A stretch of 64,000 bases of DNA from Flaccisagitta enflata (lineage: Eukaryota): positions 25,978,001-26,042,000 of the forward strand of contig OZ231126.1 of NCBI GenBank assembly GCA_965153355.1, in the 5' to 3' direction. The notes below the pieces were generated by a model. The model saw nothing but the letters and a program-made list of their open reading frames with translations, searched no databases and had not been told where the DNA came from. The number at the start of each line of letters is the position of its first letter. Positions within the stretch are counted from its first letter, which is position 1. Shown piece by piece: positions 4,375 to 52,172 of the stretch. Made by a program: the position numbers and the translations under genes.

Positions 4375-5022
4375 TAGCCTGTACCTAAATGACAAAAAAC
4401 AATAAAATTAACTTTCTCCGAGCAGATCATGTTGTGGGACTGTCTGAGGCTTCTATTGAATTCAATATTGGCTTTGAAATTCTACTTTTAGGTGGCCGCA
4501 CCTTACCTTCTATTAACGCTACCCCTATAGGAAATCCAAAATTTCAAAGTATTTAAATTCCAATTTTGACTGCAGATTTGAAATCTGCAGAAAAAACTGA
4601 CAATTGAAAGTGTTTTCTTTTTTTTTTTGATATTCCAATTAGAAAGTGGTCAAAAGTGATGTCAAATATCGCGAAATATACCTTTCCTTTTAATTTCTTT
4701 GTAAAATCATTGAACTTACCTTTTTTAAAAATCTTTAGCATGGATTTTGATAATGATCCCGAAGGAATTTTGAAAAAAGAAAAACACTTTCAACAGACAG
4801 TTTTTCATGAAGATTTCAAATCTGCAGTCAAAATTATGATTTGACCAATTTGAAATTTTTGTTTTTCTATTGACCTATAGGAAGTTCAAGGTAAGGCGCG
4901 GCCACCAAGATCTAAACTTAAAAAGCTGAAAATGATGACAATAGAAGCCCAAGACAGCTCCACAACATGAGCTGCACGGAGAATTTCGATTTTTTTGTTT
5001 TTTGTCATTTCAGTACAGGCTA
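4375..5022. mobile_element. Palindromic MITE, TAGCCTG...CAGGCTA termini, 5-bp TSD (GTTAG)
   Basis: TSD at 4370-4374 and 5023-5027; empty site near 29970 in the right arm. Confidence 0.85.
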
Positions 5023-5356
5023 GTTAGTTTAAAGCCTTGAAGCTGGGATTTGAGCCTTGAAGCAGGGATTTGAGCCTTGAAGCTGGGATTTGAGCCTTGA
5101 AGCTAGGATTTAAGCCTTGAGACTGGAATTTGAGCCTCAAAACTGGGATTTGAGCCTCAAGACTGGTATTTGAGCCTCGTGGCTAGAGTTTGAGCCTCAA
5201 AGCTGGGTTCTGAGCCTCGTTGCTAGGATTTAAGCCTCAAAGCTGGGATTTGAGCCTCTAGATTAGGATTTTAGCCTTACTACTGGGATTTGAGCCTTGA
5301 GACCGGGATTTGAACCTAAAGGCTGGGGTTTGAGCCTCAAAGGTGGGGGGAGGGGG

Positions 5357-5910
5357 TGTGAAGAACCGTAGAAAATACTGTCTCGTACCGTCATTAGGAT
5401 CTTGCCGTCCACGCAACTTCCGACTGAAGACGCCACTTCCGGTTTGAATACGCCATCGCAACGCCAATCACGCCGATAACGTCACTTCCGGTGGCGCTGG
5501 TTCCAACGTCAGTCTGTGGATGCTATCTCTAATCACTAGGTAAGAAAGTGTATTTAAACTATTATATACAGGAAGAGAAAGAGAGAGAAACAGAAGAGAG
5601 AGGGGGGAGGGATTGGTTAATGCCTACCTACTAACTAGCTAGTGTGTACCATTAGTAACTACCTCAATCAATTCAAATCAATTGTCAACATATGTAGCCA
5701 AGTACACTCACCACAGGTTCCACTGTAATCCCCAAAGTGCTTCCAGGTTGAATTGCTTGCTAAAATACACTGATTAACTGAAAGAAAGAATGCATCCAGA
5801 GAATCAAGTATATCACCACAAGCAAATGAACAGTAACGCCAACGAGAGGACAATGAAATAAATCGCAGTACAAAGGCGGCAAATGCCAAAAATATCAACG
5901 ATATTCCACA
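5357..5910 (-). repeat. 3' LTR of the BEL/Pao element (554 bp)
   Basis: Direct repeat of 18841-19393. Confidence 0.96.
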
Positions 5911-6324: not shown

Positions 6325-7896
6325 CTATAGCGTCGCGATGTCTTCATCATCAAGAGTCTGATTGCCGATATCTGTGGTCGCGGCGCCAGCCTCGGCCGCG
6401 GCCACACATGGCCAGATCCACGGCCACTTGCTGATGATGTCTCTGAGGGTTAGGGATGGCGCCGGTGGGGGGATGGATGAATCTGCCGCCGAAGCGGCAG
6501 CCATCGCCTTCCCCCCCTCCGATTGCTTCCCCTGCTTCTTTGAAGAGGATGAAGAAGATGACTTGGGTGGATCAGCCGGCGGAACGCCTCCGGCCGCACC
6601 TTCCTCCTCCTGCCTCTTCTTCTTCTTGGAGGGCTTCTCCCTCTCCTTCCTTTCCTTCGCCTTATCCTTCATCTCCTTCTCCAACTCCTCCATTTCCCGC
6701 TGCATCCCTTCCAACTTCTTCTTCTTCTCCCGCTCAACCTCCGCCTTCACCTCTTCCATCTGCTTCCTCTTCTCCTCAATCTGCTCCTTCAACCCATCCC
6801 TCTCCTCCTTATACTCCAGATGCCTCTTCCTCCTATTCTCCCTAAACTTTATATTCTTCCTCTTCTGCCTCTCCTGCTTCTTCGTCATTCCTCCCCGCTC
6901 CCCTTCTTCCTCATCCTCCGCTCCTCCTCCCTCCCCCTGCCTACGCACCACCACGTCCTCCGCTTCCAAGTCCCTCGGCTCCGGCCCCACATTCGCCACC
7001 GCCCCCGCACCACGCCACTCAGGAAGGAGAGGGCACCCCCACAATTGATTGGGCATCCTCACTGCCCTTTCCGGCCCTGCGTCACCCTTCGAATTCCACA
7101 CCATCTCCCTCTTCCTCCACTTATCCATCTCCGCCGTCAACAACCCGTCCAACTCCGCGATCCTCAGCTTCCCCTTCCTCCTCTTTGCGTCTTCCGTCGC
7201 CACCGCCTCCTTAAACCGCACCACCACCTCCGTCTCCTCCATCGCCGAGTCGCCGCGCAAACACGGCCACCGCGGCGGCTCCCTCGTCTCCGGCTCCCAC
7301 AGCCCATACGCCGTACACACCCCCGGCTTCTTCGCAAACCTCCGCATCGCCATCTTCACCTGCCCCTGACTACACCATAACAGCACCGACAGGTGACGCA
7401 GGCGTGAGCCCATCGCATGGCCGATTTTGTAGATGTCGAAGCCATCCTCGACCAGGATCCAGTCCATTTCGCCATCGACCTTAATCAGCTGGGCCACGTA
7501 CACATTGGGGTAGCGCTTCTGACCGATATGGAAGAACACCAAGACCGCCAAATTGGTGGCCATGATGTCTCTCTGCGCTTCGGTCGAGAACTGCCACTCA
7601 TCAAATTCTTCCGTCAATGCGTTGGAACCTCTACACATCCGAAAGGATCCCACCATGTCGCCTACTTCCGTCCTACTCTTCTTCTTCCTCTCCCCATCCT
7701 TCTCCACCGCCACCGCCACCTGCGGACCTCCTGGCAACAACAACTCGCTATTTTGATATTCCACCGGCACCTCCTCCGACTCCACCCTTCTCGGCTCCAT
7801 CGCCTCATCCTCCATCTGCACCAGATCAAACTCGTATCCTCCTCCCAGCGCCTCCTCACACTCCTCCCCCGTCACACTAACATGGTGGGATGACAT
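6325..7896 (-). CDS. Extra ORF of the BEL element (~523 aa from MSSHH), unknown function; acidic N-terminus, globular-looking core, K/E/R-rich coiled coil
   Basis: Uninterrupted frame (open from 8121) between the integrase stop and the 3' LTR, same strand as gag/pol, GC-rich; no signal peptide or TM anchor from the MSSHH start. Confidence 0.7.
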   Translation of the reverse strand: MSSHHVSVTGEECEEALGGGYEFDLVQMEDEAMEPRRVESEEVPVEYQNSELLLPGGPQVAVAVEKDGERKKKSRTEVGDMVGSFRMCRGSNALTEEFDEWQFSTEAQRDIMATNLAVLVFFHIGQKRYPNVYVAQLIKVDGEMDWILVEDGFDIYKIGHAMGSRLRHLSVLLWCSQGQVKMAMRRFAKKPGVCTAYGLWEPETREPPRWPCLRGDSAMEETEVVVRFKEAVATEDAKRRKGKLRIAELDGLLTAEMDKWRKREMVWNSKGDAGPERAVRMPNQLWGCPLLPEWRGAGAVANVGPEPRDLEAEDVVVRRQGEGGGAEDEEEGERGGMTKKQERQKRKNIKFRENRRKRHLEYKEERDGLKEQIEEKRKQMEEVKAEVEREKKKKLEGMQREMEELEKEMKDKAKERKEREKPSKKKKRQEEEGAAGGVPPADPPKSSSSSSSKKQGKQSEGGKAMAAASAADSSIPPPAPSLTLRDIISKWPWIWPCVAAAEAGAATTDIGNQTLDDEDIATL

Positions 7897-8086
7897 TCTC
7901 TTCGGATGCGGCGTCCACAACGATTGACAATAAGTAAAGTGATTGTTTTTATGCGTGTTGACAATTGTTAGAGAATTTACCTTCAAATCCTTCAAGCAAA
8001 GGGGGAAAAACACAAATACAAAAACAACATGGCATGGCAAAAACATGGGGACTGGGGCGGGTTGGGGGGGCACGAGGGAAACACAC

Positions 8087-11000
8087 CTAAGGAAAAAAGG
8101 GCAAAGATAACAAAATATCATAGACCGAATGAAGCAATATACTCGGCATAGTCACGCCGACAAACGCCGGGTCAAGTTCCAGTCGGACCACTTTGCTCCT
8201 ATCACGTGTGAATTTCTTCCCATTCGCCGTCACCACCACAGTCCGCACGACGTCGCCTCCATCGACTTCCGTGATGACGCCGGTGCGCCAATCTCCCCGT
8301 CGACACTGGTCATCCACCATGAGAACGACGTCGTCAATTTCCAAATCTTTCTCCACCCGGCGCCATTTGGGTCGCGCCTGCAAGGCCGAGACATAGTCTC
8401 TTTTCCACCTTCTCCAAAACGCATCAGCAATTGCGCGTGATTGGCGCCAAGTATATCGAAGCGCTTCTGCATCTGGAGGCGAGGGGGGCACAAGGTCGCA
8501 ACCGGAAGACGCGTATACTCCAGGGCAAAGAAAGTCTATTGGCCGCAAAGCCTGGATCCCCGGCTCATCACCCACATAGGTAATCGGCCGTGAATTCATG
8601 GCCAGCTCTGCCTGAGCCAATACTGTCGCAAAAGTTTTTATGTGGAGATTGTCTTGGTTCAGTACGAACGCCAAATGTCTTTTTGCAGATTGAACCAAGC
8701 GCTCCCATACTCCACCTCGATGTGGTGCAACAGGTGGGTTAAATGTCCATTGTATGCCCGTCAGCCTTAACTCGGGTTTCGCGGACAAATTCCATGCTTC
8801 CATTTCCGCGCGCAGTTCTTTGTCGGACGCGGTGAAGTTGGTGCCATTGTCCGAATACAAATGGCGAATCGCAGGGCGGCGAGCTTGAAACCGCAAGAGG
8901 GCGTCGATGAAGCAAGAGGCGCTCATGGATCTCAATATCTCGGCGCACCGCGTGGCACGCAAGGCAGGTAAAGAGCGCGACGTACACTTTGTGAGATGCT
9001 CTCCCGGCGATTTTGCAAGAAGCAGGTCCAAAAATATCCACCCCCGCGTTCTCGAAGGGCAGACACTTTTTAGTCCTCACTTCCGGTAGTGGTGCCATCA
9101 GCTGACTTTCAGGGCGTTTAAATTGTTTTTGACACTCCACACACGCGCGCACGACGCGCGTCACAGACCGGCGTCCTTTCGTGATCCAAAAGCGGCGTCG
9201 CGATTCACCCAGTACTTGTTCCACGCCGGCGTGCAGTTGACGGAAGTGGATAGACCGGATCAAACACGCGACGGCCTCGCCATCGTGTGGAGTATTATCG
9301 GATTTTTGGCGTCAAAGTCCAATTCCTCGTCACGCTGGAGTCGTCCTCTGCATCGTAGCAAACCGGCGTCGTCAACGAAGGGGCATAACGCCGCCAATGG
9401 CGATTTTGCGGCGACTTTTTTGGCTCCAACCGGATCACATTGTTGCAACGACTTAATTCCGCGTGGAAGGCTTGGGATTGAATGGCGCTGACGATCAATT
9501 TTCGGCGTCGGCCAATTCGACGCCGGTGGGCGCTCCAACTTTGTCGGCGTCGTGTACAACGCCTGGCGTCGATGGCGGACAATGCACATCATGATCGTGC
9601 GTTTTAGCAGTGCGATGCGCCTCACCTTTCCGTCCACGTCGCCACCTTCTCGCTGACGCGAATCACCCACGATTGAGGCGGCGTTCTTTCCGGCGTCGCC
9701 GTCGTCGCAAGGATGTGAGCGGGAAATGGGCGTGTCACGATCTGCTTTTTCGGCCATTCGTCTTCGCCTCGCCAAAGATAATCAGGGCCGTTGTGGAATT
9801 TGCCCCAATTTGGATCTTGAGCGAGCATCCCTTTGGACGAGTAGTTTGCTGGGTTGAGGTGGGCTGGTACCCACCTCCACTCCTTGACCTTCGTAAGCGC
9901 CTGAATTTCAGAGAGACGATTTGCAAAGTAAAACTTGAACCTTGTTTCAGTGTCATTTAATTGCTTAATTACACATTCAGAATCGGTCCAATTTACATAA
10001 CCATCATAACTCCCTTTTTCTTCACTAATGGTGGCGCGCATTCTGGCCGCGAGGCGTGCTGCTTGAAGCTCCAAGCGTGGCGTCGACTGCATGTGACCCG
10101 CCTCCACATCCTTCAGAGGGACGACGTGCGACTTGGAGCATACGATGGACACATGGATTTCGCCGACTGACCTCAGCGGATTTAGTACATGCTCCATACG
10201 CCTGGGCCCACTCGCATCCGGTCACCGTGAGGACCTGCTGCCCCAGTGCTTCAAGTGTCGCTGCCCCATCCTCGTGTGATGAAGGACTCCAAGAATTTTG
10301 GTCATTTCTTTGCCATTCCACAAACTCGTTGAGGGACACGGTTGGAATGTCTTTGTTATCCCAACTTTCGACGACGCGTAACACTTTTTGCAGAATTAGC
10401 CTTTCCCAAATCACGAATGGCTCCAAAAAACCCAGCGGGTCAAATATAGACGCTATTAATTTGAGCATTTGTCTGGTCTGCACATTCACCCGGCCTTTGA
10501 TTTATCTGGCAAAAAGGAAAAAGCATCGGCAGAAAAAGAATATCTAAGGCCTAACAGTTTCGTCGTGTCATCAGTGGCGCCGGATACATCCATGGGCGTC
10601 ACGCGCTGATCCGTCAGATCGCCTTCAAGGACTTCCGGGTGGCTTGATCTCCATTTGCACAGATTCATGCCGGCGTCCTGGAGGGCGGCCGTGATGCCCA
10701 CGCGAAAGTCTTTGCCACTTTGGTACTGAGCAGTGACTTTATCAGATCATCAATGTACATGTTCCTCATCACTGCCTGAACCACGAGGGGGCCTTATATT
10801 CAGCCGAGATGTTGCACCACAGTGTTGTAGAGTGAAGATCGCGCACACTTGATGATTTTGCACTAAAGACGTAAATAGAAACTCGCTCAGGTTTATTTCC
10901 ATTTTTTCATATCGCGAACCAATAATAGCGGAAAAGTCCTGCGTCTTCTTTCGTGACATAGATTCGTAGCAATTCACGTCCGCGCCCACGGCGACGGGGC

Positions 11001-11959
11001 CTTCGCACCGGAAGCGCATCAACACGCCTCTGATGTCGTTGGCAAGTTGCGGTCCGTCCAAGAGCTGGTCGTTAAGGCTTGATCCACCCACTGCTGCATG
11101 GCAATCGTGGCAGATGAAGACCTGACCCGGCTTGCCTGGTTTGTCCGCCACATGGATAGGGATAGCCCATCTAGGTCGATCTGGTGGCATGTTGGCGTGC
11201 ACATTTGGATCTACTTTCCTCACGCGCCCTTTTTCCCAGAATTTTGCCATAGTTTCGAATGTTATTCGGCGCCTTTCCGGGTCCCGCATTAATTGTTTTT
11301 TCAGCCGAAATAAGCGGTCTAGGGCCATAATTTCAGAATCCAAATTGATTAGTGCATCGGCAGTTGCTTGCCTTCCACCTTTATGAAGGACTGGAGTAAG
11401 GTAGTGTTCAGATTTCGGATCCAACATCATGCCCTCCTTCATTTGGCGGATGGCAAACTTATCACTGAGAGACATATCTCGCTTATTTTTGTCCACTTTT
11501 TCGAATTCACCGGCATTTATTCTTTTTATGGTTTTTGCCAAATCTGAATCAATGCTGTGAAACGAAGCAAAGTTGCAAACAAAATATCGCGAGTCAGTGT
11601 TGTTTCTAGGGCCGATCAGACCGGCGCCGAGCGGCGTGGAAATTCCCATGGGCAGCCCCTCGGCGCTTTTATATGTCTCTCCGCCGATCCAGATTCGAGC
11701 GTGCTCCGCGGCTGACATTACGCCGATAGAGCATCCGTCGCCGCCATCCGGAAACGCAGGAAATTCCAGGTCGACGAGATGCTCCATCCCGGCGGTATCC
11801 TCAGCGCGTGGTGGTCTGTCGTCTTTCGATGCGATTATTTCCCCAAAAATGGCGTTGTTGAGAGTGATCCCGTAGCCGTTGGTACCTTCAATCACCACAT
11901 CTGCCACCTCCCTCTCTCCTTCCACCATCTTCTCATGGGTGGTTATCGTCATCGTCGTT
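8087..11959 (-). pseudogene. pol: pol copy B (mid-PR through complete integrase); heavily frameshifted
   Basis: 8792-11959 repeats 12653-15867. TPRLELQAA, WRWVPAHLNPAN, HHCC (HFRQLH...CVEC), YSDNGTNF, GGVWERLV and the BEL integrase tail FWRRWKRDYVSALQARPKW. Confidence 0.9.
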
Positions 11960-12652
11960 GAACGGCCACTGTGATCATTATCTCGGCATTTTTAATAGAA
12001 TTCCGGATTTCATAGGCAAACTAAAAAAAAATTTTATCTTTTGAGAAAATCAACCTTTATTTCTGAAAAATATAAATAGATTTTATTTTTTTCATGTAAG
12101 AAATCAAAACAATTTTTCTTTAAAAATGGCCCAAGCTGAATTTCATTTTGTTCTTAAAATTTTGACAAATCTCAGGCTCATGTCTCTTATAAACTGGTCT
12201 CTTATATAAAAAAAAAGTGTATCGAAATGTGTTTCAACTCCCGCTGTACTTAAATTATTTTGACTGGGTGTGTCTATGTTTGTTTCGCTGTCGTTTTCAG
12301 GTTTTCATGTTTATGCTCTCATCAAATTGATTCATGTTCAAAGAAATACAGATGAAATGCATCCATTATGAATAATAATTTTGTATCAATTAATAAATGC
12401 TCGGCGGAAGCCCTAAATACTGTTGCAGGCTGTGGGCTATTAGCGATTGGTCTCCTTAGCTAGTTAAGGTAACGTTTGAAAGGTTCCCGAGCATCAAGAA
12501 CAGAGAGAAATTTGAACTATTTGACCATTCTATTTATCGGTAGAAGTTCAGTCGATTCCATCCAGGACACGGTATGCGTAGTTTAGTATCTAAGCGAGTT
12601 TTTTCATTGTTGACAAACCATCTCGGGAATTTACTAGCAATTGTTCCCGATG

Positions 12653-15600
12653 CCATGCTTCCATTTCCGCGCGCAGTTCTTTGTCGGACGCGGTGAAGTT
12701 GGTGCCATTGTCCGAATACAAATGGCGAATCGCAGGGCGGCGAGCTTGAAACCGCAAGAGGGCGTCGATGAAGCAAGAGGCGCTCATGGATCTCAATATC
12801 TCGAAGTGCACCGCGCGGCACGCAAGGCAGGTAAAGAGCGCGACGTACACTTTGTGAGATGCTCTCCCGGCGATTTTGCAAGAAGCAGGTCCAAAAATAT
12901 CCACCCCCGCGTTCTCGAAGGGCAAACACTTTTTAGTCCTCACTTCCGGTAGTGGTGCCATCAGCTGACTTTCAGGGCGTTTAAATTGTTTTTGACACTC
13001 CACACACGCGCGCACGACGCGCGTCACAGACCGGCGTCCTTTCGTGATCCAAAAGCGGCGTCGCGATTCACCCAGCACTTGTTCCACGCCGCGTGCAGTT
13101 GACGGAAGTGGATAGACCGGATCAAACACGCGACGGCCTCGCCATCGTGTGGGCAAGCAGCAGGTCCAAAAATATCCACCCCCGCGTTCTCGAAGGGCAG
13201 ACACCCGTCACGCTGGAGTCGTCCTCTGCATCGTAGCAAACCGGCGTCGTCAACGAAGGGGCATAACGCCGCCAATGGCGATTTTGCGGCGACTTTTTTG
13301 GCTCCAACCGGATCACATTGTTGCAACGACTTAATCTCCGCGTGAAAGGCTTGGGATTGAATGGCGTTGACGATCAGATTTTTGGCGTCGGCCAATTCGG
13401 CGCCGGTAGGCGCCCCAACTTTGTCGGCGTTGTTGTACAACGCCCGGCGTCGATTTTGGACAACGCATATCATGATCGTGCGTTTTAGCAGTGCGACGCG
13501 CCTCAACTTTCCCGTCCACGTCGCCACTTTCTCGCTCACGCAAATCACCCAAGATTGAGGCGGCGTTCTTTCCAGCGTCGCCGTCGTTGCGAGGATATGA
13601 GCGGGAAACGGGCGTGTCACGATCTGCTTTTTCGGCCATTCGTCTTCGCCTCGCCAAAGATAATCAGGGCCGTTGTGGAATTTGCCCCAATTTGGATCTT
13701 GGGCGAGCATCCCTTTTGACGAGTAGTCGGCTTGAGGTGGGTTGGTACCCACCTCCACTCCTCAACCTTCGTAAGCGCCTGAATTTCAGAGACGATTTGC
13801 AAAGTAAACCTTGAACCTTGTTTCAGTGTCATTTAATTGCTTAATTACACATTCAGAATCGGTCCAAAGACTTACATAACCATCATAACCCTTGCTCTTC
13901 AATAATGGTGGCGCAGATTCTGGTCGCGAGGCGGTGCTGCTTCTTGAAGCCCAAGGTGGCGGCTCGACTCCATGTGACCCGCCTCCACATCCTTCAGAGG
14001 GACGACGTGCGATTTGGAGCATACAATGGACACATGGATTTCGCCATTCGGACCCTCGTAGCGGACGTAGTACACGGCTCCATACGCCCGTCCACTCGCA
14101 TCCGAATACCCGTGGAGGACCTTTTTTCCGTCTTGCGTTTCCGGCGTCGCCGTCCATCTCGTGATGCGGAAGGACTCCAAGAATTTGAAGCTCGCCTGCC
14201 ATTCCACAAACTCGTTGAGGGACACGGTTGGAATGTCTTTGCTATCCCAACTTTCGACGACGCGTAACACTTTTTGCAGAATTAGCCTTGCCCAAATCAC
14301 GAATGGCTCCAAAAACCCAGCGGGTCAAATATAGACGCTATTAATTTGAGCATTTGTCTTTTGGTCTGCACATTCAATTCGGCCTTTGATTTATCTGGCA
14401 AAAAGGAAAAAGCATCGGCAGAAAACGAATATCTAAGGCCTAACAATTTCGTCGTGTCATCAGTGGCGCCGGATACATCTATTGGAGCCGCCGGCGCCGG
14501 ATCCGTCGTATCGCCTTCAAGAACTTCCGGATGACTTGATCTCCACTTGCATAGATTCATGCCGGCGTCCTCGAGGGCGGCCGTGATGCCCACGCGAAAG
14601 TCTTTAGCCACTTTGGTATTGCGCAGTGATTTTATCAGATCATCAATGTACATGTTCCTCATCACTGCTTGAACCACGAGAGGGCCATATTCAGCCGAGT
14701 GCTGTTCCACGTGGTGTTGCAGAGTGAAGATCGCTACACAATTTGATGATGATTTTGCACTAAAGACGGGGTCGGTGAAACTCGTTCAGGTCGATTTCTC
14801 CTTTTTTTCATCGCGAAACCAATAATAGCGGAAAAGTCCTGCGTCTTCTTCGGTGACATAGATCTCGTGGAAGTAATCCTTAATGTCCGCGCCCACGGCG
14901 ACGGGACCTTCACACCGGAAGCGCATCAACACGCCTCTGATGTCGTTGGCAAGTTGCGGTCCGTCCAAGAGCTGGTCGTTAAGGCTTGATCCACCCACTG
15001 CTGCTTTACAATCGTGGCAGATGCGGACTTGCCCGGGCTTACCGGGCTTGTCCGCCACATGGATCGGAATCTGTCCATCTAGGTCGATCTGGTGGCATGT
15101 TGGCGTGCACATTTGGATCTACTTTCCTCACGCGCCCCTTTTCCCAGAATTTTGCCATAGTTTCGAATGTTATTCGGCGCCTTTCCGGGTCCCGCATTAA
15201 TTGTTTTTTCAGCCGAAATAAGCGGTCTAGGGCCATCGTTGGAGAATCCAAATTGTTTAGTGCATCGCAAGTTGCTTGCCTTCCACCTTTATGAAGGACA
15301 GGGGTCCGGTAGTGTTCCGTTTTTGGATCCCACCTAATGCCCTCCTTCATTTGGCGGATGGCAAACTTATCACTGAGAGACATATCTCGCTTATTTTTGT
15401 CCACTTTTTCGGATCCACCGGCATTTATTCTCTTTATGGTTTTTGCTAAATCTGAATCAATGCTGTGAAACGAAGCAAAATTGCAAACAAAATATCGCGA
15501 GTCAGTGTTGTTTCTAGGGCCGATCAGACCGGCGCCGAGCGGCGTGGAAATTCCCATGGGCAGCCCCTCGGCGCCTTTATATGTCTCTCCGCCGATCCAG

Positions 15601-16048
15601 ATTCGAGCATGCTCCGCGCCGATTATTACGCCGATAGAGCATCCATCGTCGCCATCCGGAAACGCAGGAAATTCCAGGTCGACGAGATGCTCCATCCCGG
15701 CGGCATCCTCAGCGCGTGGTGGTCTGTCGTCCTTCGATGCGATTATCTCCCCGAAGATGGCGTTATTGAGAGTGATCCTGTAGCCGTTGGTACCTTCAAC
15801 TACCACGTCCGCCACCTCCCTCTCTCCCTCCACCATCTTCTCAAGGGTGGTTATCGTCATCGTCGTTTTCCTCCCACTTAGTTTCAATTTTACATAAGTC
15901 CTTCGACACGACGGTCGGTTGGGCCGCCGTCCATCAAAGCAAAAGTCTTGACTTTTCTTTCACCCGTTATGTACAGCGGCAAGATCAACCTCCACGCTCC
16001 GTCGTCGCCGCCAACTTTGAAGACGGAGTTGGTCGAAGGCGCCTCATG
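12653..16048 (-). pseudogene. pol: pol copy A (PR, RT, RNase H, N-terminal integrase); frameshifted and truncated inside integrase
   Basis: PR motif FALMDGG in frame after the gag stop; RT ADIKDYFHEI and MYIDD; RNase H LHGYSDASGRAYGA and WTDSECV; IN GVDIFGP and YSDNGTNF; breaks at ...MEAW (12653). Confidence 0.9.
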
Positions 16049-18745
16049 TCACGCAGGCCCAGATCCTTTTTCGCCGGCGTCTTTGTTTTCAACAGTTTGT
16101 TTTCCCGCCGGGTTAGGTTCCGGGTGCGCTAGAGGGTGATGGAAGCCGCTGCACTTGTCGCAAGTGATCGTCGACGGACATGCCTTGAGATGGCCTCCTT
16201 CGAGGCATCTGAAGCAGATGCCCAAGTTTTTGTTGAATTTCCGGCGGTCCAACGCGTTCATCTCGCTGTAAGTGGGGCAATCCGCTAGACCGTGTTTTCC
16301 GTCGCAACGAGGACAGAGGCCCGGCGTCGCTTTTTGAAGCCGCGTCGGCATCGCGTCCTTCTTTGCGGCGGCGTTGGCGGTCGTCGCGGAAATTTTGGCC
16401 GATGCAGCGAGCTTGTTTTGATTGTTGTTGCGATGGTATCCTGACAACATTTCAGATATGGTTTGCTCTTCATCAATGAAATCAAGAAAATCAGCAAATT
16501 TCAAATCTGAACCATTTTTCTTCCTATACCTCACAACTTTCTTTGCCCACTTATCTTTTAGGAAGGGAAGCTTCTTCTCGACGATCGTCTTGACCACCAA
16601 CTTGTTCTCGAAGTCGTCCGCCTTTTTCGTCTCGGTTGCGAACGAGTGGACGCTCATCAACCGCGCGTAGAAATCGAGCATTCCGTTGTGATCTTTTTCG
16701 TCGATCGCTTTTCCCTGCAGCACTTCGTCAAGCATCTCCAACGCGGTCTCTTGGCGCATCCCGAACTTTTTCGTCAACTTTTCCAACGCCTCGTCGACGG
16801 CCGACTCCGACTTCTTCAGCGTCTCCGCCTCGATCAGCTTGAAGGCCGATCCCTCAAACCAATGCTGCAACTCGTTCAGCATTTGCTTCTTAGATACGCC
16901 CGGGATCTCCATCGCCTCGTTGAAGATTTTCATGTGCTTTTCGAAGTCCATTCTCTTGGTCGTATTTCCGGAGAACTTTTTGGCGGGTCTTGCTTCTTTC
17001 AGCTGGTGGATAGCCGTCTGCTTTAGCGCCGCCTCCAACTGTTGCCGCTGCAGTCGCAAGATGCTCGTCATTAGCGTGTCTGAGACGTTTGAAGCATGGC
17101 TGCTCGCACTGCTAGAAGCTATCGACGGCGCCTTCGAACGTGTTGACGATGATCTTGACGCGATTGACGAGCGGCTGGGGCTTTTCACTTTCTGAGGATG
17201 TACCGTCGCCGGTGCATCTGTCTTTGCCCCTGGCTTTTCGTCTTTCGTCTTGATCCCTCTCTTTGTTCTCTCTTGTTCTCCTGACTCCATTTTCTTTGGC
17301 TTCACGTCACCCAATTTACGGTAAGGCATTGTCGGTGGTTTTTTGACCTCCGTCTTTGCCTCTTTTTCCTTTTTTGGGTCTTCGGCGTAAAGCTTCTTTT
17401 TTGACTTTCGCAGTGGATCCGGTAGCGATCTCTCTGTGATTGACGGCGTTTTCACCTCCTTCTTAGCCGTCGACGTCGGTCTCGACGTCACTCCGTTCAC
17501 CCACGCGCTCGTCAATGCATCCGGAGTTTCGCCACCGAATGCTGCACCTGCGGCGGTCATCTCCAATCCGGCGCCAGCGTCCCTCGACTTTTCTCCCTCC
17601 TCGACGGCGCCGCTTGCCGTTGACTGTTCGTCTTCATTCGCCGCTATCAAGTCCTGCAGCTCCGCCGCATTTTTGTCAATGTTATCCATTTCTTTCTCGT
17701 GGAGGGTTTTGTCGAGGTCCTTTTGCCTTTGTATGTCTTGGATAATGCTTTGATGATACGCAATATCCGCGTCCGCTTGCGCGTCGTTGGATTTTATCCG
17801 TTCCTTCTCGGCTTCCCTTTTTCTCTGTCTGTCTTTCTCCACCTGTCGTGACATCACCGTCGACGTTTTGCTCCTTTGGGATCCCTTTTCTGACGACCTC
17901 GTCGAACGTATCGTCGACCTGGCATTTTCTGCGTCGTCGTCGCGTTCGGGATCAGCACGTGGAGTAACAGAGGTGGTCACGCTTTGAGGTTTTTCGGCCT
18001 CTTTGTCTTTTTTGTTGGCCTCTGCCGCTGTCCGCAGTTCATTTTCGGCCAATTGGAAGCCGGATGGAAGTGGCCGAGCTTTCGGCCGAATGGAGTCATC
18101 TATGGTGAGTTCTGCTGCCGCCGCGGGGGGTGTCGCTGGAGGAGGAGGAGGAGGCGGATGTGACGGGTTTTGGCGTCTTTCCGGCGTCTGACCGCCGACT
18201 ACGTTTTCGAGTACCTTTCTTCCGGCAGTCACTGTCAACGATACCCTCTTTTTCAATGAGTTCAGCATCGACGCTGGAGGCGCCGTCTCTTTCGTCACTT
18301 CCGGTCTCCTCCTTCCTTCCTCTTCGCCTTCACCTCTTCCGCTCGTCCTGCTTTCGTGCAGCAGCGGTAATCCCCCCAACGCCCCGACGTCCTCCGCCGG
18401 GTCGTCAACAGTCTCGTTGACGTCCCCTGCCGATTGCGTCTTGAAGTGGGATTCGAGCGTTATTTTGTAACGAACCATGTCTTGCATCAATTGTCCGGCC
18501 ATTTCCCTGGCGTTGGGCTCGTTCTCAATTTTGCAGGCATTATATTCGTCTAAACGCTTCTCGTAGAGGTCGCAGAATGCGTCGCTTTTTAAGTTCAATT
18601 CGGTTTGCGCCTCCTCCGACGGTGTTTTTGTCGCGTGGTCGAGGGCTACCGTCATTGAGTTAAAGCTTTTCTCCAATTCTCGCCTCACGTGTGCAACGAT
18701 GCGCAGGTCCCATACCGTGGCTTCGATCGGTCTGATGTTCGCCAT
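16049..18745 (-). CDS. gag: BEL/Pao Gag, 898 aa
   Basis: Open ORF just downstream of the 5' LTR. C-terminal BEL-type triple zinc knuckle (CPRCDGKHGLADC, CFRCLEGGHLKAC, CDKCSGFHHPLAH) after a capsid-like helical region (KFSGN...FEKH); long low-complexity N-terminal half. Confidence 0.9.
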   Translation of the reverse strand: MANIRPIEATVWDLRIVAHVRRELEKSFNSMTVALDHATKTPSEEAQTELNLKSDAFCDLYEKRLDEYNACKIENEPNAREMAGQLMQDMVRYKITLESHFKTQSAGDVNETVDDPAEDVGALGGLPLLHESRTSGRGEGEEEGRRRPEVTKETAPPASMLNSLKKRVSLTVTAGRKVLENVVGGQTPERRQNPSHPPPPPPPATPPAAAAELTIDDSIRPKARPLPSGFQLAENELRTAAEANKKDKEAEKPQSVTTSVTPRADPERDDDAENARSTIRSTRSSEKGSQRSKTSTVMSRQVEKDRQRKREAEKERIKSNDAQADADIAYHQSIIQDIQRQKDLDKTLHEKEMDNIDKNAAELQDLIAANEDEQSTASGAVEEGEKSRDAGAGLEMTAAGAAFGGETPDALTSAWVNGVTSRPTSTAKKEVKTPSITERSLPDPLRKSKKKLYAEDPKKEKEAKTEVKKPPTMPYRKLGDVKPKKMESGEQERTKRGIKTKDEKPGAKTDAPATVHPQKVKSPSRSSIASRSSSTRSKAPSIASSSASSHASNVSDTLMTSILRLQRQQLEAALKQTAIHQLKEARPAKKFSGNTTKRMDFEKHMKIFNEAMEIPGVSKKQMLNELQHWFEGSAFKLIEAETLKKSESAVDEALEKLTKKFGMRQETALEMLDEVLQGKAIDEKDHNGMLDFYARLMSVHSFATETKKADDFENKLVVKTIVEKKLPFLKDKWAKKVVRYRKKNGSDLKFADFLDFIDEEQTISEMLSGYHRNNNQNKLAASAKISATTANAAAKKDAMPTRLQKATPGLCPRCDGKHGLADCPTYSEMNALDRRKFNKNLGICFRCLEGGHLKACPSTITCDKCSGFHHPLAHPEPNPAGKQTVENKDAGEKGSGPA

Positions 18746-18840
18746 AGTATCTGATGTTACCTGCGTGTTGTGCTCGTGTATAGTAGGGGGTTATAATATA
18801 GGGTTAGCAACTTTCACCAGCGGCTTTGGTGTTTAAATAC

Positions 18841-19393
18841 TGTGAAGAACCGTAGAAAATACTGTCTCGTACCGTCATTAGGATCTTGCCGTCCACGCAA
18901 CTTCCGACTGAAGACGCCACTTCCGGTTTGAATACGCCATCGCAACGCCAATCACGCCGATAACGTCACTTCCGGTGGCGCTGGTTCCAACGTCAGTCTG
19001 TGGATGCTATCTCTAATCACTAGGTAAGAAAGTGTATTTAAACTATTATATACAGGAAGAGAAAGAGAGAGAAACAGAAGAGAGAGGGGGGAGGGATTGG
19101 TTAATGCCTACCTACTAACTAGCTAGTGTGTACCATTAGTAACTACCTCAATCAATTCAAATCAATTGTCAACATATGTAGCCAAGTACACTCACCACAG
19201 GTTCCACTGTAATCCCCAAAGTGCTTCCAGGTTGAATTGCTTGTTAAAATACACTGATTAACTGAAAGAAAGAATGCATCCAGAGAATCAAGTATATCAT
19301 CACAAGCAAATGAACAGTAACGCCAACGAGAGGACAATGAAATAAATCGCAGTACAAAGGCGGCAAATGCCAAAATATCAACGATATTCCACA
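18841..19393 (-). repeat. 5' LTR of the BEL/Pao element (553 bp)
   Basis: TGTGAAGAACC...ATTCCACA on the plus strand; differs from the other LTR by about 2 substitutions and one 1-bp indel by eye. Confidence 0.96.
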
Positions 19394-19843
19394 GGGGGCA
19401 TACAGAAGAGGAGGAGGAAAAGAAGATTAAGAAAAAATATCCCCTTTGTTACATGGTGTGTGTGAAAGCATAAGTCATCGGTTCCTTTGGGCCCGCTGCC
19501 CAAAAAGCAGGGTGAAACAGAAGATCTTGAATAAAAAAAACACCGCTACCTAGCAACACCCAGTACTATTTTTCCATAACTTAAGTTTGAATTTTGAAAA
19601 CATTCACCTTCACAAAATCAAATCCATGGGCAAACTATAGAACTTTTTATAAGCCTTTTAGACATTAAATCTGCATCTGAATATCTTTCTAGATTTGGTT
19701 GATTAGTTCTTTATGAAAATTATAGCAATTATGCAGTGATTTGCATGGGGAATATTTTTACTGTTTTAGATCATAATTGATTTTGAGGCAGTCCAGGTGT
19801 ATGTCATGAGCGAAATAAAGACATTTTTCAAGATTTAACTAGT

Positions 19844-21002: not shown

Positions 21003-22199
21003 TATCTGCATGTGGCTAGATATCTCCTGTTCGATTTGAGTCTTTTAATGTACGGACTATGATGGGCAGACAGATGTTATATCTCCGCGTTTATTTCATC
21101 GACTTTCCTCCCCATATAGTATTGATATAGTGATTTGGGGTTCATAAGAATGAATATATGTAGTGGTAAATTACTACTAGTAATAGAATATCACCTTTTA
21201 TTATTACCTGGATTTATTATACAGGGTCTTCAATTGTGACTGACTTATCCTAAATTGACGGTGTGCCTCTCATAGTCATTACTATGATTTCCTCTTATTT
21301 CCCTCCTGTAGCATATTGTTTGACGTTTTTTGTATCAAAATTTCAAGGGTTTTTGTCAAATATTTTGTCTGTTATTATGCTTTTAAGTAGGGCAGGTACC
21401 CATGGTTGTGACATGAAAAAATCGTTTTTGTTTGATTTTTTTTTCATATTGCTCTCATTTGATTAGCTAGAGCTAAAGATGACTCATTGGTCTCAAATCA
21501 AACATAATTTAATCTACTTTTAAGAGGTAAAAAATCAGATTTAGATTGCTAGAATTATCATATACTAACTATAAAGAAAATTGTTTGTTTGGAAAACATT
21601 TTGTCAGAAATCGATTTCAAGGTCATCACATGGAATCAAGATATCAACACAAATGTTGTTCCATCTCAAGTAGTTTGGACAAGGCATTTCCTTCCCTCAC
21701 TTTGCTTTTCTCGGTTTTCCTGTCGGGGGAGAGGAATACGGAATGATGTACACCCCTGCCTGACTGAAAATGATTTAAATTGTTGGTGGGACTTAAAAGT
21801 CTGTTACTTTTTGGTCTAATTTTCGTTGTGAGCATAAATATCATTTTCTCAGCAGTAAGGACACCCACACAACCGGCAGTCAACAGCACTTCCTAGGCCG
21901 TGAGTACACCCACACAGCCAAGAGTGTCTTCTTCCCAACCGTGACGAGGTTTTAGTTTCTTCTGCGTCAAAATTCAGAAAAAATATGGAATAATTTATGA
22001 GAAATCAAATTTTTTGAAGTCCGCCCGCGTTTTTCCTCCTATTTTCCTTCTGTACTCGTTTTTCCTCCTTATTTTCACTCTTTTTTTTTTCGTTTCCTTT
22101 TTTTTTCTTTCCTCAGTTTAATTCACTTTGTTTACTACCTTCTCTCTTCGCGATAATCATTATCCAATCTTATTTAGTCACGTAACTGCCAAAATACTT

Positions 22200-23358
<1,159 letters not shown>

Positions 23359-27568: not shown

Positions 27569-27978
27569 TTCTTATTCTTCTTCTTCTTCCCCCTTTTCTC
27601 ACACACCTAATATTCGAAAGCCGAAAGACAGAATGACAAACAGAGGTTGGAAAACAGTCATGGATAGACAATAAAAACAAAAGGGAGATGCGGGATGAAG
27701 AAAAACAAAAACAAAAAACATTCGTTACCTAGCTGAGGAAATCTCCTGAGAGTCATGAGTCGAATGTCAACATCGAATTTGTCCTGATGACTTCGACCCC
27801 AAATGTTACCGAGGAAAAACGGAAGGAGAAGAAACACATAGGACAACAACGACAACAACGACAACGATAACATCAACAACAACAGTGGCAACAACAACAA
27901 AAACAACAACATCATCCACATCCACAACAACAGAAGAAACACAAGAAAAAACATAACAAACAACATCAACAACAACAG

Positions 27979-28081
<103 letters not shown>

Positions 28082-28089
28082 AACATCAA

Positions 28090-28137
<48 letters not shown>

Positions 28138-28148
28138 ACAATAACAAT

Positions 28149-28209
<61 letters not shown>

Positions 28210-28587
28210 GCAACAGCAACAACCAACAACAACAACGACATGCATGATAGACAGACATTCTAAAAAATGACTAAGCTTTTTGGTGCACAAATATAAAAAG
28301 TTAATTCTTTAAGTGAAACTTATTTTAAATATTTCAAGATATCACGTATCCTGCTCCCCAAAGGCTATTCCGCACACAATACTAAAGAGTAGACTTAGAC
28401 ACATCCTTTGAAAAAATCCTATTCTAACGAATTGAAACTTCCTCATCTCCAGGGACACTACAAATAAACATTGCATCTTTTTGAATGCTTCCCGCTACTA
28501 AGTTCAAAAATACGTAAGTGGCTGTAGTTGCCGTTGTTTACGCGAATGTTGTTGTTGTTGTTGTTGATTTTTTTGTTGTTGTTGTTT

Positions 28588-28694
<107 letters not shown>

Positions 28695-28845
28695 GATGAT
28701 GATGTTGTTGTTGTTGTTTTGGATGTCGTTGTCGTTGTTGTTGTCGTCAAGTATTTTGGCAGTTACTTGACTAAATAAAATTGGATGATGATTATCGCGA
28801 AGAGAGAAGGTGGTAAACAAAGTGAATTAAACTGAGGAAAGAAAA

Positions 28846-38222: not shown

Positions 38223-38838
38223 AAATAGTCGCAAAAGCGTTAGATGGTCAGCGGTACCCGTTGCCCCTAATTGAAGTGTATGAAGGTGTGAGGTGGTGAG
38301 AGGGGCAGCGGCCCCAAAGGAGCCGATGACCTATGCTGTTTTTATTTGAGCCTGGAGGCTGGAATTGGGGCCTTGAAGCGGGGATTTGAGCTCAAAGGCG
38401 GGGATTTGAGCCTCATGGCTGAGATTTGAACCTCGAGACTGAGATTTGAGCCTCAAGATTGGGATTTGAGCCTCAAGGCTGGGATTTGGGCCTTGAGGCT
38501 GGGATTTGGGCATTGAGGCTAGGATTTGGGCCTTGAGGCTGGGATTTGGGCTTTGAGGCTGGGATTTGGGCCCCGAGGCTGAGATTTGGCAAATGAGGCT
38601 GAGATTTGGGCCTCGAGGTTAAGACTTGGGCCTCAAGGCTGGGATTTGGGCCTCAAGGCTTGGATTTGGGCCTTGAGGCTTAGATTTGGGTTTTGAGGCT
38701 AAGATTTAGGCCTCCAGGCTGGAATTTGGGTCTCAAGTCTGAAAGGGGGGGGTACGAAGAAGGAGAAGGAGGAGAAGGAGAAATTTCTCCTGTGTGAAAG
38801 CATAGGTCATCGGCCCCTTCGGGGCCGCTGCCCAAAAA
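38223..38838 (-). mobile_element. Family B element nested in another family B copy (38044-39365)
   Basis: Same architecture; interrupts the host's 21-bp AATCAGGCCTCTCAGACCCCA array. Confidence 0.72.
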
Positions 38839-52044: not shown

Positions 52045-52172
52045 TCTTAGACGTCTGATGGGCTCGTAGGAGAAACTATTTTGATACTATTCAGAAGTAC
52101 GTTGGGAGGCAAAGCACGAGAGAAAGGTAGAAGTGAAAATGCGTTTGAGCTTCCAGTCCCCTTTTCTCTTAT

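What the first reader, a model, noticed from the sequence alone, without database searches (positions are those of the whole stretch)
18805..19051. Candidate tRNA-independent self-priming in a BEL/Pao retrotransposon
Seen: the element strand has no TGG-starting tRNA PBS next to the 5' LTR. The 10 nt abutting the LTR end (GTATTTAAAC, 18840-18831) are the exact complement of GTTTAAATAC inside the LTR (19043-19034), 203 nt from its end. If transcription starts at ~19043, the RNA 5' end pairs with the PBS position with its 3' end pointing into U5. The next 6 nt (ACTTTC) also complement GAAAGT in the leader (18815-18810). Known: this is the geometry of self-priming in S. pombe Tf1 and related Tf1/sushi Gypsy elements. 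I do not know of it in BEL/Pao, which are described as tRNA-primed. Inference: an independently evolved self-priming BEL lineage. Caveats: the 10-mer is AT-rich with a palindromic TTTAAA core, and a TATATAA box lies only 2 nt upstream of the proposed start.
Basis: partly seen in the sequence, partly recalled or inferred. Interest (0 to 1): 0.8.

Follow-up and report, generated by a model that had tools for sequence, protein, structure and literature searches.

The report
Possible self-primed BEL/Pao retrotransposon
A young BEL/Pao retrotransposon lacks the usual tRNA primer site and instead carries, right next to its repeat, ten bases that pair with a site inside the repeat where its RNA seems to begin, so it may prime its own copying as yeast Tf1 does.

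Summary
A 14.0-kb BEL/Pao element lies on the minus strand, with LTRs at 19393-18841 and 5910-5357 and a CCCCC target duplication. The 10 nt abutting the 5' LTR (18840-18831) are the exact complement of 19043-19034 inside the LTR. The chance of this is 0.0005-0.003 against shuffled LTRs and 0.02 against random window positions. The nearest TGG lies 21 nt downstream. It matches none of about 190 metazoan tRNA 3' ends that I compared by eye.

New evidence bears on the RNA ends. The one contig laid from one RNA run spans 19044-18775 and ends 1 nt upstream of the proposed start. A contig from a second RNA run covers the upstream LTR and stops at 19019. Together they fit a short R of about 26 nt, with the "TATA box" acting as a poly(A) signal. 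This is only a weak hint, because DNA contigs also break at 19045.

The extra 6-nt pairing is private to this copy. DNA of related elements could not be fetched, so conservation and covariation remain untested.

Verdict: Tf1-like self-priming is the best explanation (about 0.55). It would be the first case in BEL/Pao, after Ty3/gypsy and Ty1/copia. It is unproven.

The parts
18841..19393 (-). 5' LTR, 553 nt (TGTGG...TTCACA)
   Evidence: Identity with 5357-5910 and the CCCCC duplication.
5357..5910 (-). 3' LTR, 554 nt. It is 99.46% identical to the 5' LTR and carries the same 10-mer at 5559-5550.
19394..19398 (.). Target-site duplication CCCCC. The other copy is at 5352-5356.
19034..19043 (-). 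Putative self-primer GTTTAAATAC, proposed to be the first 10 nt of the RNA (or nt 2-11 if the start is A19044).
   Evidence: Exact complement of 18840-18831. The RNA contig of X16 ends at 19044.
18831..18840 (-). Primer-binding site GTATTTAAAC, abutting the LTR at offset 0.
   Evidence: The expressed copy (X16 contig) lists no difference here.
19019..19044 (-). Inferred R region, about 26 nt.
   Evidence: The X16 RNA contig starts at 19044 and the X17 RNA contig (LTR start to 19019) stops at 19019. This is an inference from contig ends only.
18841..19018 (-). Inferred U5, about 178 nt. It folds into a long imperfect hairpin closed by the 10-bp duplex, and holds two CCGGAAGT motifs (18975-18968 and 18926-18919).
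19046..19052 (-). TATATAA. It is either a TATA box (predicting a start near 19021) or, in the favoured model, part of the poly(A) signal region just upstream of or within R.
   Evidence: Sequence. The distance to the X17 contig end at 19019 comes.
18808..18819 (-). TGGTGAAAGTTG, the only TGG-starting 12-mer downstream of the LTR, at +21. It is not a plausible tRNA site.
   Evidence: Its 8-mers are absent from the supplements of PMC13524379. By eye it has 4 or more mismatches to the nearest-looking 3' 12-mers listed there.
16049..18745 (-). gag ORF, 898 aa. It has a long low-complexity N-terminal part, a weak DUF1759 match and three cysteine/histidine-rich zinc-knuckle-like motifs.
8087..15959 (-). 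pol, fragmented by frame breaks and carrying a partial internal duplication (8789-11466 resembles 12650-15374). Domains are Peptidase_A17, Integrase_H2C2, rve and DUF5641.
6325..8121 (-). Third ORF of 598 aa between integrase and the 3' LTR, of unknown family.

Best explanation
This element probably primes its own reverse transcription in the manner of Tf1.

Proposed mechanism (inferred unless marked as shown):
- Transcription starts at A19044 or G19043 in the 5' LTR.
- The first 10-11 nt of the RNA fold back across a structured U5 of about 178 nt.
- These nucleotides pair with the 10 nt that directly follow the LTR (18840-18831). This complementarity is shown.
- The element's RNase H would cut after C19034.
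- The freed 3' end, paired with G18840, is extended into U5, starting with A18841. The DNA end therefore falls exactly at the LTR's terminal CA.
- R is short, about 26 nt (19044-19019).
- The AT-rich TATATAA/TTTAAA stretch would then serve as the poly(A) signal for the 3' LTR, not as a TATA box.

Shown here: the complementarity, its exact position, the lack of a canonical tRNA site, and the BEL/Pao identity. Inferred: the RNA start, the cut, and the priming itself.
For: 1. The 10-nt complement is exact and sits at offset 0 from a precisely defined LTR end. It arose in 9 of 20000 shuffles at offset 0 and in 61 of 20000 at offsets 0-3.

2. No TGG lies within 20 nt downstream of the LTR. The only one, at +21, is too far to define the observed CA end (an inference from how LTR ends form). 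Its complement is not among the roughly 190 metazoan tRNA 3' 12-mers of PMC13524379, supplement 1, sheet 2 (compared by eye). No Rfam tRNA match with E up to 10 was found in 18600-19400.

3. In RNA run X16, the 1 contig laid (270 nt, depth 5.9) covers exactly 18775-19044 with no loose end, while DNA of X1 continues upstream. In RNA run X17, a 382-nt contig covers 19394-19019 and stops there. Both ends fit R = 19044-19019. That is shorter than 31 letters, which as I recall is the word length behind these contigs, so the two pieces would not be joined.

4. T19045/A19044 is a pyrimidine-purine step, as is usual at a start site (sequence).

5. Among the 40 best-supported variant rows shown (of 129), none lies in 18825-18907 or 18985-19049. 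These two blocks hold the PBS and the 10-mer.

6. RNA 19044-18800 folds to -75.6 kcal/mol, z = -2.38, with 3 of 200 shuffles folding as well. The 10-bp duplex is present in both the MFE and the centroid structure. Its pair probability is 0.61-0.99 for RNAs starting at 19043 or 19044 and ending at 18826-18746.

7. The LTRs are 99.46% identical. The family is very abundant, with 1216 contigs laid from X1. Whole pol proteins of 1290-1339 aa exist among the relatives. The PBS region was therefore in use recently.

8. Self-priming has arisen or been predicted in two other superfamilies (passages).
Against: - TATATAA starts 8 nt upstream of A19044. If it is a TATA box, the start would lie near 19021, where another TAGT is found.
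- The 10-mer is AT-rich (duplex only -7.6 kcal/mol) and has a palindromic TTTAAA core. Random window positions give an anchored complement of 10 nt or more at 2.2%.
- Contigs cannot show RNA ends. A DNA contig of X1 ends at 19045, and X1 shows an insertion variant right there. The X16 end may therefore be an assembly break.
- Each RNA run shows only one of the two expected pieces.
- The X16 contig has 3 differences, of which only 2 are located. The third may lie near an end, possibly inside the 10-mer.
- 89 of the 129 variant rows were not shown, so full conservation of the two 10-mers is not established.
- Pair probability falls to 0.03-0.06 when the RNA is extended to 18600.
- After the primer is removed, only about 15 nt of R would remain for the first strand transfer.
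- The extra 6-nt pairing is not conserved.
- No relative could be examined.
Confidence: 0.55

Rival explanations
1. The complementarity is a chance match. The element would then be primed by a host RNA that could not be identified here, such as an internal part or half of a tRNA (as in copia and some plant Ty1/copia lineages) or another small RNA.
For: The 10-mer is AT-rich with a palindromic core. Anchored complements of 10 nt or more occur at 2.2% of random window positions. TATATAA at 19052-19046 predicts a start near 19021, which would leave the 10-mer outside the RNA. Half-tRNA sites are known in about 2% of plant elements. The host genome and its tRNAs were not available. DNA contigs also break at 19045.
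Against: The shuffle probability is 0.0005-0.003. The RNA contig of X16 includes 19044-19020, so at least some RNA holds the 10-mer. The site would need an AU-rich 10-mer at the primer's 3' end, which is unusual for cytoplasmic tRNA stems (general knowledge, not tested). No tRNA-like match was found in the leader.
Confidence: 0.28
2. The pairing between the 5' end and the PBS is real and selected, but it serves RNA folding, such as packaging, dimerisation, or masking of the PBS. Priming would be done by another molecule.
For: The duplex closes a stable R-U5 fold. Both 10-mers lie in stretches without well-supported variants. Long-range 5' pairings are known in other retroelement RNAs (general knowledge).
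Against: The duplex ends exactly at the LTR border, which is what priming needs and folding does not. No alternative primer site is visible.
Confidence: 0.1
3. This copy is a dead, rearranged element whose original tRNA site has decayed, so the region has no function at all.
For: pol is broken by frame shifts and a partial internal duplication.
Against: The LTRs are 99.46% identical. An expressed copy lists no difference in the PBS, and the 40 shown variant rows have none from any run in 18825-18907. The region therefore represents the family, not private decay of this copy.
Confidence: 0.05

Closest known systems
Tf1 of Schizosaccharomyces pombe and Tj1 of S. japonicus (Ty3/gypsy, Tf1/sushi group): self-priming
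   Same: The PBS abuts the LTR and is complementary to a short stretch in the 5' LTR taken to be the 5' end of the mRNA. There is no tRNA site. The fold brings the 5' end and the PBS together across U5. (Passages of PMC4600332; PMC5445492.)
   Different: The pol here is BEL/Pao, not a chromovirus, and the host is a marine animal. The duplex is 10 bp. The RNA start, the RNase H cut and the priming are not shown here, whereas for Tf1 they are experimental.
Plant Ty1/copia TAR lineage (Houba, Osr-1) and Tcn1-clade chromoviruses: predicted self-priming
   Same: Self-priming is inferred from sequence alone, in lineages outside Tf1. This shows that the trait recurs (passages of PMC6317226).
   Different: These belong to other superfamilies, in plants and fungi. 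I did not see their sequences.
Canonical BEL/Pao (Belpaoviridae, for example Tas and Achilles)
   Same: The pol domains, the TG...CA LTRs, the 5-bp duplication and the optional third ORF are shared (passages of PMC8742986).
   Different: The family is described as tRNA-primed. The ICTV profile gives an 18-nt site for tRNA-Arg or tRNA-Gly, and Achilles uses tRNA-Tyr. Here no TGG site lies next to the LTR. At 14.0 kb, the element also exceeds the stated 4.2-10 kb because of the internal duplication.
Half-tRNA priming (copia; plant Osser, Bryco and Bianca lineages)
   Same: The site is non-canonical and does not start with TGG.
   Different: That mechanism needs a match to an internal tRNA stretch. 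None could be tested without host tRNAs, and the 10-mer is AU-rich.
Fungal GalEa Conserved Hairpin Site and bivalve TRIMs without a PBS
   Same: These are LTR elements that lack a tRNA site and have local complementarity near the LTR (passages of PMC5445492; PMC6934838).
   Different: There, the inverted repeats both lie in the internal domain, 12-41 bp apart, and no complement in the LTR was found. Here the partner lies in the LTR, 193 nt upstream.

Membership tests
BEL/Pao (Belpaoviridae) | Pao-type pol (Pfam Peptidase_A17) with an integrase that carries the DUF5641 tail | tested here: met
   Peptidase_A17 E = 9.5e-21, DUF5641 E = 2e-19, Integrase_H2C2, and rve below its cutoff. Relatives of 1290-1339 aa carry PF05380, PF17921 and PF18701.
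BEL/Pao (Belpaoviridae) | gag of the DUF1759 type with zinc knuckles | tested here: inconclusive
   DUF1759 scores 18.5 bits, below the 25.4 cutoff. Three cysteine/histidine-rich knuckle-like motifs are visible in the translation.
BEL/Pao (Belpaoviridae) | LTRs ending TG...CA with a short target duplication | tested here: met
   TGTGG...TTCACA with a 5-bp CCCCC duplication.
BEL/Pao (Belpaoviridae) | PBS complementary to the 3' end of a host tRNA (ICTV: tRNA-Arg or tRNA-Gly) | tested here: not met
   No TGG lies within 20 nt of the LTR. The +21 candidate matches none of about 190 metazoan tRNA 3' 12-mers (by eye). Host tRNAs were not available.
Self-primed LTR retrotransposons (mechanism as in Tf1) | The PBS at the LTR border is complementary to a stretch within the 5' LTR | tested here: met
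   The 10-nt match is exact and at offset 0.
Self-primed LTR retrotransposons (mechanism as in Tf1) | The complementary stretch is the 5' end of the element's mRNA | tested here: inconclusive
   The 1 RNA contig laid from X16 ends at 19044, 1 nt upstream. DNA contigs break at 19045 too, and contigs cannot map RNA ends.
Self-primed LTR retrotransposons (mechanism as in Tf1) | Complementarity is kept or covaries in related elements | not testable with these tools
   No DNA of relatives was obtained. Within the family, the 40 of 129 variant rows shown have none in either 10-mer.
Self-primed LTR retrotransposons (mechanism as in Tf1) | RNase H cuts after the primer, and the cDNA carries the element's own RNA at its 5' end | not testable with these tools
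   This needs an experiment.
Self-primed LTR retrotransposons (mechanism as in Tf1) | An RNA fold brings the 5' end to the PBS | tested here: inconclusive
   The duplex is in the MFE and centroid structures, z = -2.38. Its probability depends on the 3' limit chosen. This is a prediction only.
Tf1/sushi lineage (Ty3/gypsy chromoviruses) | Ty3/gypsy-type pol | tested here: not met
   The pol domains found are BEL/Pao-specific.

The most novel reading that the evidence does not exclude
A whole clade of BEL/Pao elements, hugely amplified in a marine planktonic animal, has given up tRNA priming. Its RNA starts at 19043/19044, folds its first 10-11 nt onto the PBS and is cut to prime cDNA synthesis. 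It would work with an R of only about 26 nt and a poly(A) signal at the U3/R border. That would be a third, independent origin of self-priming among LTR retroelements, and the first in Belpaoviridae.
Probability: 0.5. Interest if true: 0.65.

Novelty: new variant of a known kind. Interest (0 to 1): 0.55.

Why it matters
BEL/Pao replication is called poorly understood and is assumed to be tRNA-primed (ICTV profile). A self-primed BEL/Pao lineage would show that this mechanism has arisen in all three LTR-retrotransposon superfamilies. It would free these elements from dependence on host tRNA, and possibly from tRNA-fragment-based silencing. It would also explain why annotation pipelines that look for tRNA sites miss or misjudge such elements. 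The family's very high copy number in a marine animal makes it a practical model, because RNA and cDNA intermediates should be easy to detect.

Tried and rejected
- Whole-genome search: no genome is held for this window.
- tRNA genes in the window: 0.
- Other LTR elements in the window: none. blastn of the LTR plus leader found only the two LTRs and one 31-nt match. Pfam on 25 further ORFs found only a C2H2 zinc-finger gene and weak hits.
- DNA of relatives:
  - Viral contigs gave 0 confirmed with gag, the pol ORF, pol alignment A2, the long-pol alignment A3 and an LTR 21-mer. Alignment A1 was not usable.
  - Genome contigs gave 0 with A2 and 0 with the LTR 21-mer.
  - Metagenome contigs, searched with a pattern anchored on both sides of the PBS, gave 6 stretches. 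None of the 6 resembled the element by blastn.
- Relatives' proteins exist on assembly contigs of up to 9804 nt, but the tool that fetches such contigs is closed.
- All four runs laid were contigs, not raw reads, so no start or end could be mapped. Parts without cover in X16 and X17 say nothing.
- Rfam gave only three sub-threshold snoRNA-like matches.
- The TGG at +21 was considered as a displaced tRNA site and rejected, both on distance and on lack of a match.
- ORF3: no Pfam family apart from a weak coiled-coil-type hit, and no usable Atlas hit.
- Literature: the BEL/Pao survey PMC3118150 has 0 occurrences of PBS, tRNA or primer. A search for self-priming + Pao + LTR gave 11 papers, none of which reports self-priming in BEL/Pao by title or start of abstract.

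Full report
**What is there.** Reading the minus strand and comparing the two repeats defines one LTR retrotransposon of 14,037 nt.
- The 5' LTR is 19393-18841 (553 nt) and the 3' LTR is 5910-5357 (554 nt).
- Both LTRs read TGTGG...TTCACA. They differ by 2 mismatches and 1 indel (99.46% identity).
- The 5-bp duplication CCCCC flanks both ends, so the LTR end at 18841 is exact.

The internal part encodes:
- an 898-aa gag (18745-16049; weak DUF1759 match and three cysteine/histidine-rich knuckle-like motifs);
- a pol with Peptidase_A17 (the Pao family), Integrase_H2C2, rve and DUF5641.

This is BEL/Pao. pol is broken by frame shifts and carries a partial internal duplication (8789-11466 resembles 12650-15374 at 89-100% identity). 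Relatives with whole pol proteins of 1290-1339 aa and the same domains exist in public assemblies.

**The observation.** GTTTAAATAC occurs three times in the window (0.13 expected). It is once in each LTR (19043-19034 and 5559-5550, minus strand). The third site, 18831-18840 on the plus strand, means the element strand reads its complement GTATTTAAAC at 18840-18831, directly after the LTR's terminal CA.
- The pairing cannot be extended on either side: A19044 faces A18830 and A19033 faces A18841. It is a crisp 10-bp duplex that ends exactly at the LTR border.
- TATATAA lies at 19052-19046.
- The nearest TGG downstream of the LTR is at +21.

Chance was estimated as follows:
- With the LTR dinucleotide-shuffled, an anchored complement of 10 nt or more arose in 9 of 20000 shuffles at offset 0, and in 61 of 20000 at offsets 0-3.
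- Taking 200000 random positions of the window as mock borders gives 2.2%, a figure inflated by simple repeats.

The match is therefore unlikely, but not impossible, by chance.

**No canonical primer site.** All of the roughly 190 metazoan tRNA 3' 12-mers listed in sheet 2 of supplement 1 of PMC13524379 end in CCA, so a canonical site starts with TGG.
- The single candidate, TGGTGAAAGTTG at +21, has 4 or more mismatches to the nearest-looking entries (compared by eye). Its 8-mers occur nowhere in that paper's supplements.
- A site 21 nt from the LTR would also not produce the observed CA end. This follows from how LTR ends form and is an inference.
- Rfam finds nothing tRNA-like in 18600-19400.
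- Host tRNAs could not be examined.

**RNA and family evidence.** The stretch is held by DNA runs of one named organism (coded A) and by many marine metagenomes. Four RNA runs hold small shares. I laid contigs of 2 DNA and 2 RNA runs on 18000-19450.
- The family is extremely abundant. From X1, 1216 contigs were laid: 376 at 99% likeness or more, 363 at 95-99%, 342 at 90-95% and 135 below 90%.
- In RNA run X16, the 1 contig laid is 270 nt long and covers exactly 18775-19044 with no loose end. Its upstream end is 1 nt before the proposed start.
- In RNA run X17, a 382-nt contig covers 19394-19019 plus 7 letters beyond the LTR start, and stops at 19019.
- Read together, these fit a transcript with R = 19044-19019, about 26 nt. 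That is shorter than 31 letters, which as I recall is the word length behind these contigs, so the 5' and 3' pieces would stay apart.
- The AT-rich TATATAA/TTTAAA stretch would then be the poly(A) signal, 16-33 nt before the end, and not a TATA box.
- T19045/A19044 is a pyrimidine-purine step, as expected at a start.

**Limits of that evidence.**
- Contigs cannot show RNA ends.
- A DNA contig of X1 ends at 19045, and X1 shows an insertion variant exactly there. The X16 end may therefore be an assembly break that falls 1 nt away.
- Each RNA run shows only one of the two pieces.
- The X16 contig has 3 differences, of which only 2 are located (18811 and 18824). The third may lie near an end.
- Of 129 variant rows, only 40 were shown. 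None of the 40 lies in 18825-18907 or 18985-19049, the blocks that hold the PBS and the 10-mer, but the other 89 rows are unseen.
- At 18811, all laid depth of X1 (11 contigs), X3 (3 contigs) and the X16 contig reads the other letter.

**Structure.** RNA 19044-18800 folds to -75.6 kcal/mol (z = -2.38; 3 of 200 shuffles fold as well). The 10-bp duplex closes a long imperfect U5 hairpin in both the MFE and the centroid structure.
- The duplex probability is 0.61-0.99 for RNAs that start at 19043 or 19044 and end at 18826-18746.
- It falls to 0.03-0.06 when the RNA is extended to 18600, and is generally lower, though context-dependent, for RNAs starting upstream.
- The duplex alone is worth -7.6 kcal/mol.

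**Mechanism proposed.** The RNA starts at 19043/19044, and its first 10-11 nt pair with the PBS. RNase H cuts after C19034, and the 3' end primes cDNA from A18841 through U5 and the rest of R. Strand transfer then uses the remaining R, about 15 nt. Plus-strand synthesis copies the primer and so renews the PBS, which would keep the two 10-mers matched at every cycle. Only the complementarity, its position and the absence of a tRNA site are shown. Every other step is inferred.

**Rivals.**
- A chance match with an unidentified host primer, such as a tRNA half (0.28).
- A folding role for the pairing, with another primer (0.10).
- Decay in a dead copy (0.05). This is contradicted by the near-identical LTRs and by the absence of listed differences in the PBS block in other copies and in the expressed copy.

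**What is known.** I saw passages only, not whole papers.
- The ICTV profile states that Belpaoviridae replicate by tRNA-primed reverse transcription, with an 18-nt site for tRNA-Arg or tRNA-Gly, and calls replication poorly understood (PMC8742986).
- Achilles, a BEL/Pao element, has a tRNA-Tyr site (PMC4580426).
- Self-priming is experimental for Tf1, is proposed for Tj1 and for elements from fungi to vertebrates (PMC4600332), and is predicted for the Tcn1 clade and the plant Ty1/copia TAR lineage (PMC6317226).
- The BEL/Pao survey PMC3118150 never mentions PBS, tRNA or primer.
- A search for self-priming + Pao + LTR returned 11 papers, none of which reports it in BEL/Pao by title or start of abstract. 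Subscription-journal papers are not covered by these searches.

**What could not be done.** No DNA of relatives could be obtained, so the comparative test is open.

**Verdict.** If true, it is a new variant of a known mechanism in a third superfamily. Interest 0.55.

Noticed in passing
window 8789-11466 and 12650-15374: A partial internal duplication of the pol region, with a start-to-start spacing of about 3.9 kb and segments 89-100% identical. It makes the element 14.0 kb long. It could come from recombination between two family members, from a tandem rearrangement, or from an assembly artefact.
   Followed up: partly
window 6325-8121 (-): A third ORF of 598 aa lies between the integrase and the 3' LTR. 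It has no Pfam family (only a weak coiled-coil-type hit) and no usable Atlas hit. It might be an env-like or accessory gene of this BEL/Pao clade.
   Followed up: partly
window 18975-18968 and 18926-18919 (and 5491-5484, 5442-5435 in the 3' LTR): Two CCGGAAGT motifs, which resemble ETS-factor sites, lie in each LTR downstream of both candidate starts. The motif occurs 9 times in the window against 1.4 expected, and all 9 sites are inside this element.
   Followed up: no
window 19050-19100 (-): A CT-rich, microsatellite-like stretch lies just upstream of TATATAA. It varies in length between copies (indels at 19073-19078) and is where many contigs break. Unrelated RNA contigs match it.
   Followed up: no
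window 18000-19450, runs X1 and X3: The family is extremely abundant in the DNA of one named organism, and it is present in marine metagenomes of several studies. Subfamilies exist whose leader diverges just after 18825 while the PBS block still aligns.
   Followed up: partly
window 4968-5407 and 38264-38803: Arrays of a 20-nt tandem repeat. One of them directly adjoins the 3' LTR's flank.
   Followed up: no
window 22109-23055 and 27775-28821: Two blocks of repeats with a 9-15-nt period, about 5.5 kb apart, overlapping long open frames. They may be repetitive coding sequence of a duplicated host gene.
   Followed up: no
window 49705-52086 (-): An open frame of 793 aa made of many C2H2 zinc fingers (zf-H2C2_2 E = 1e-167). 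It is a host gene and fits an animal genome.
   Followed up: no
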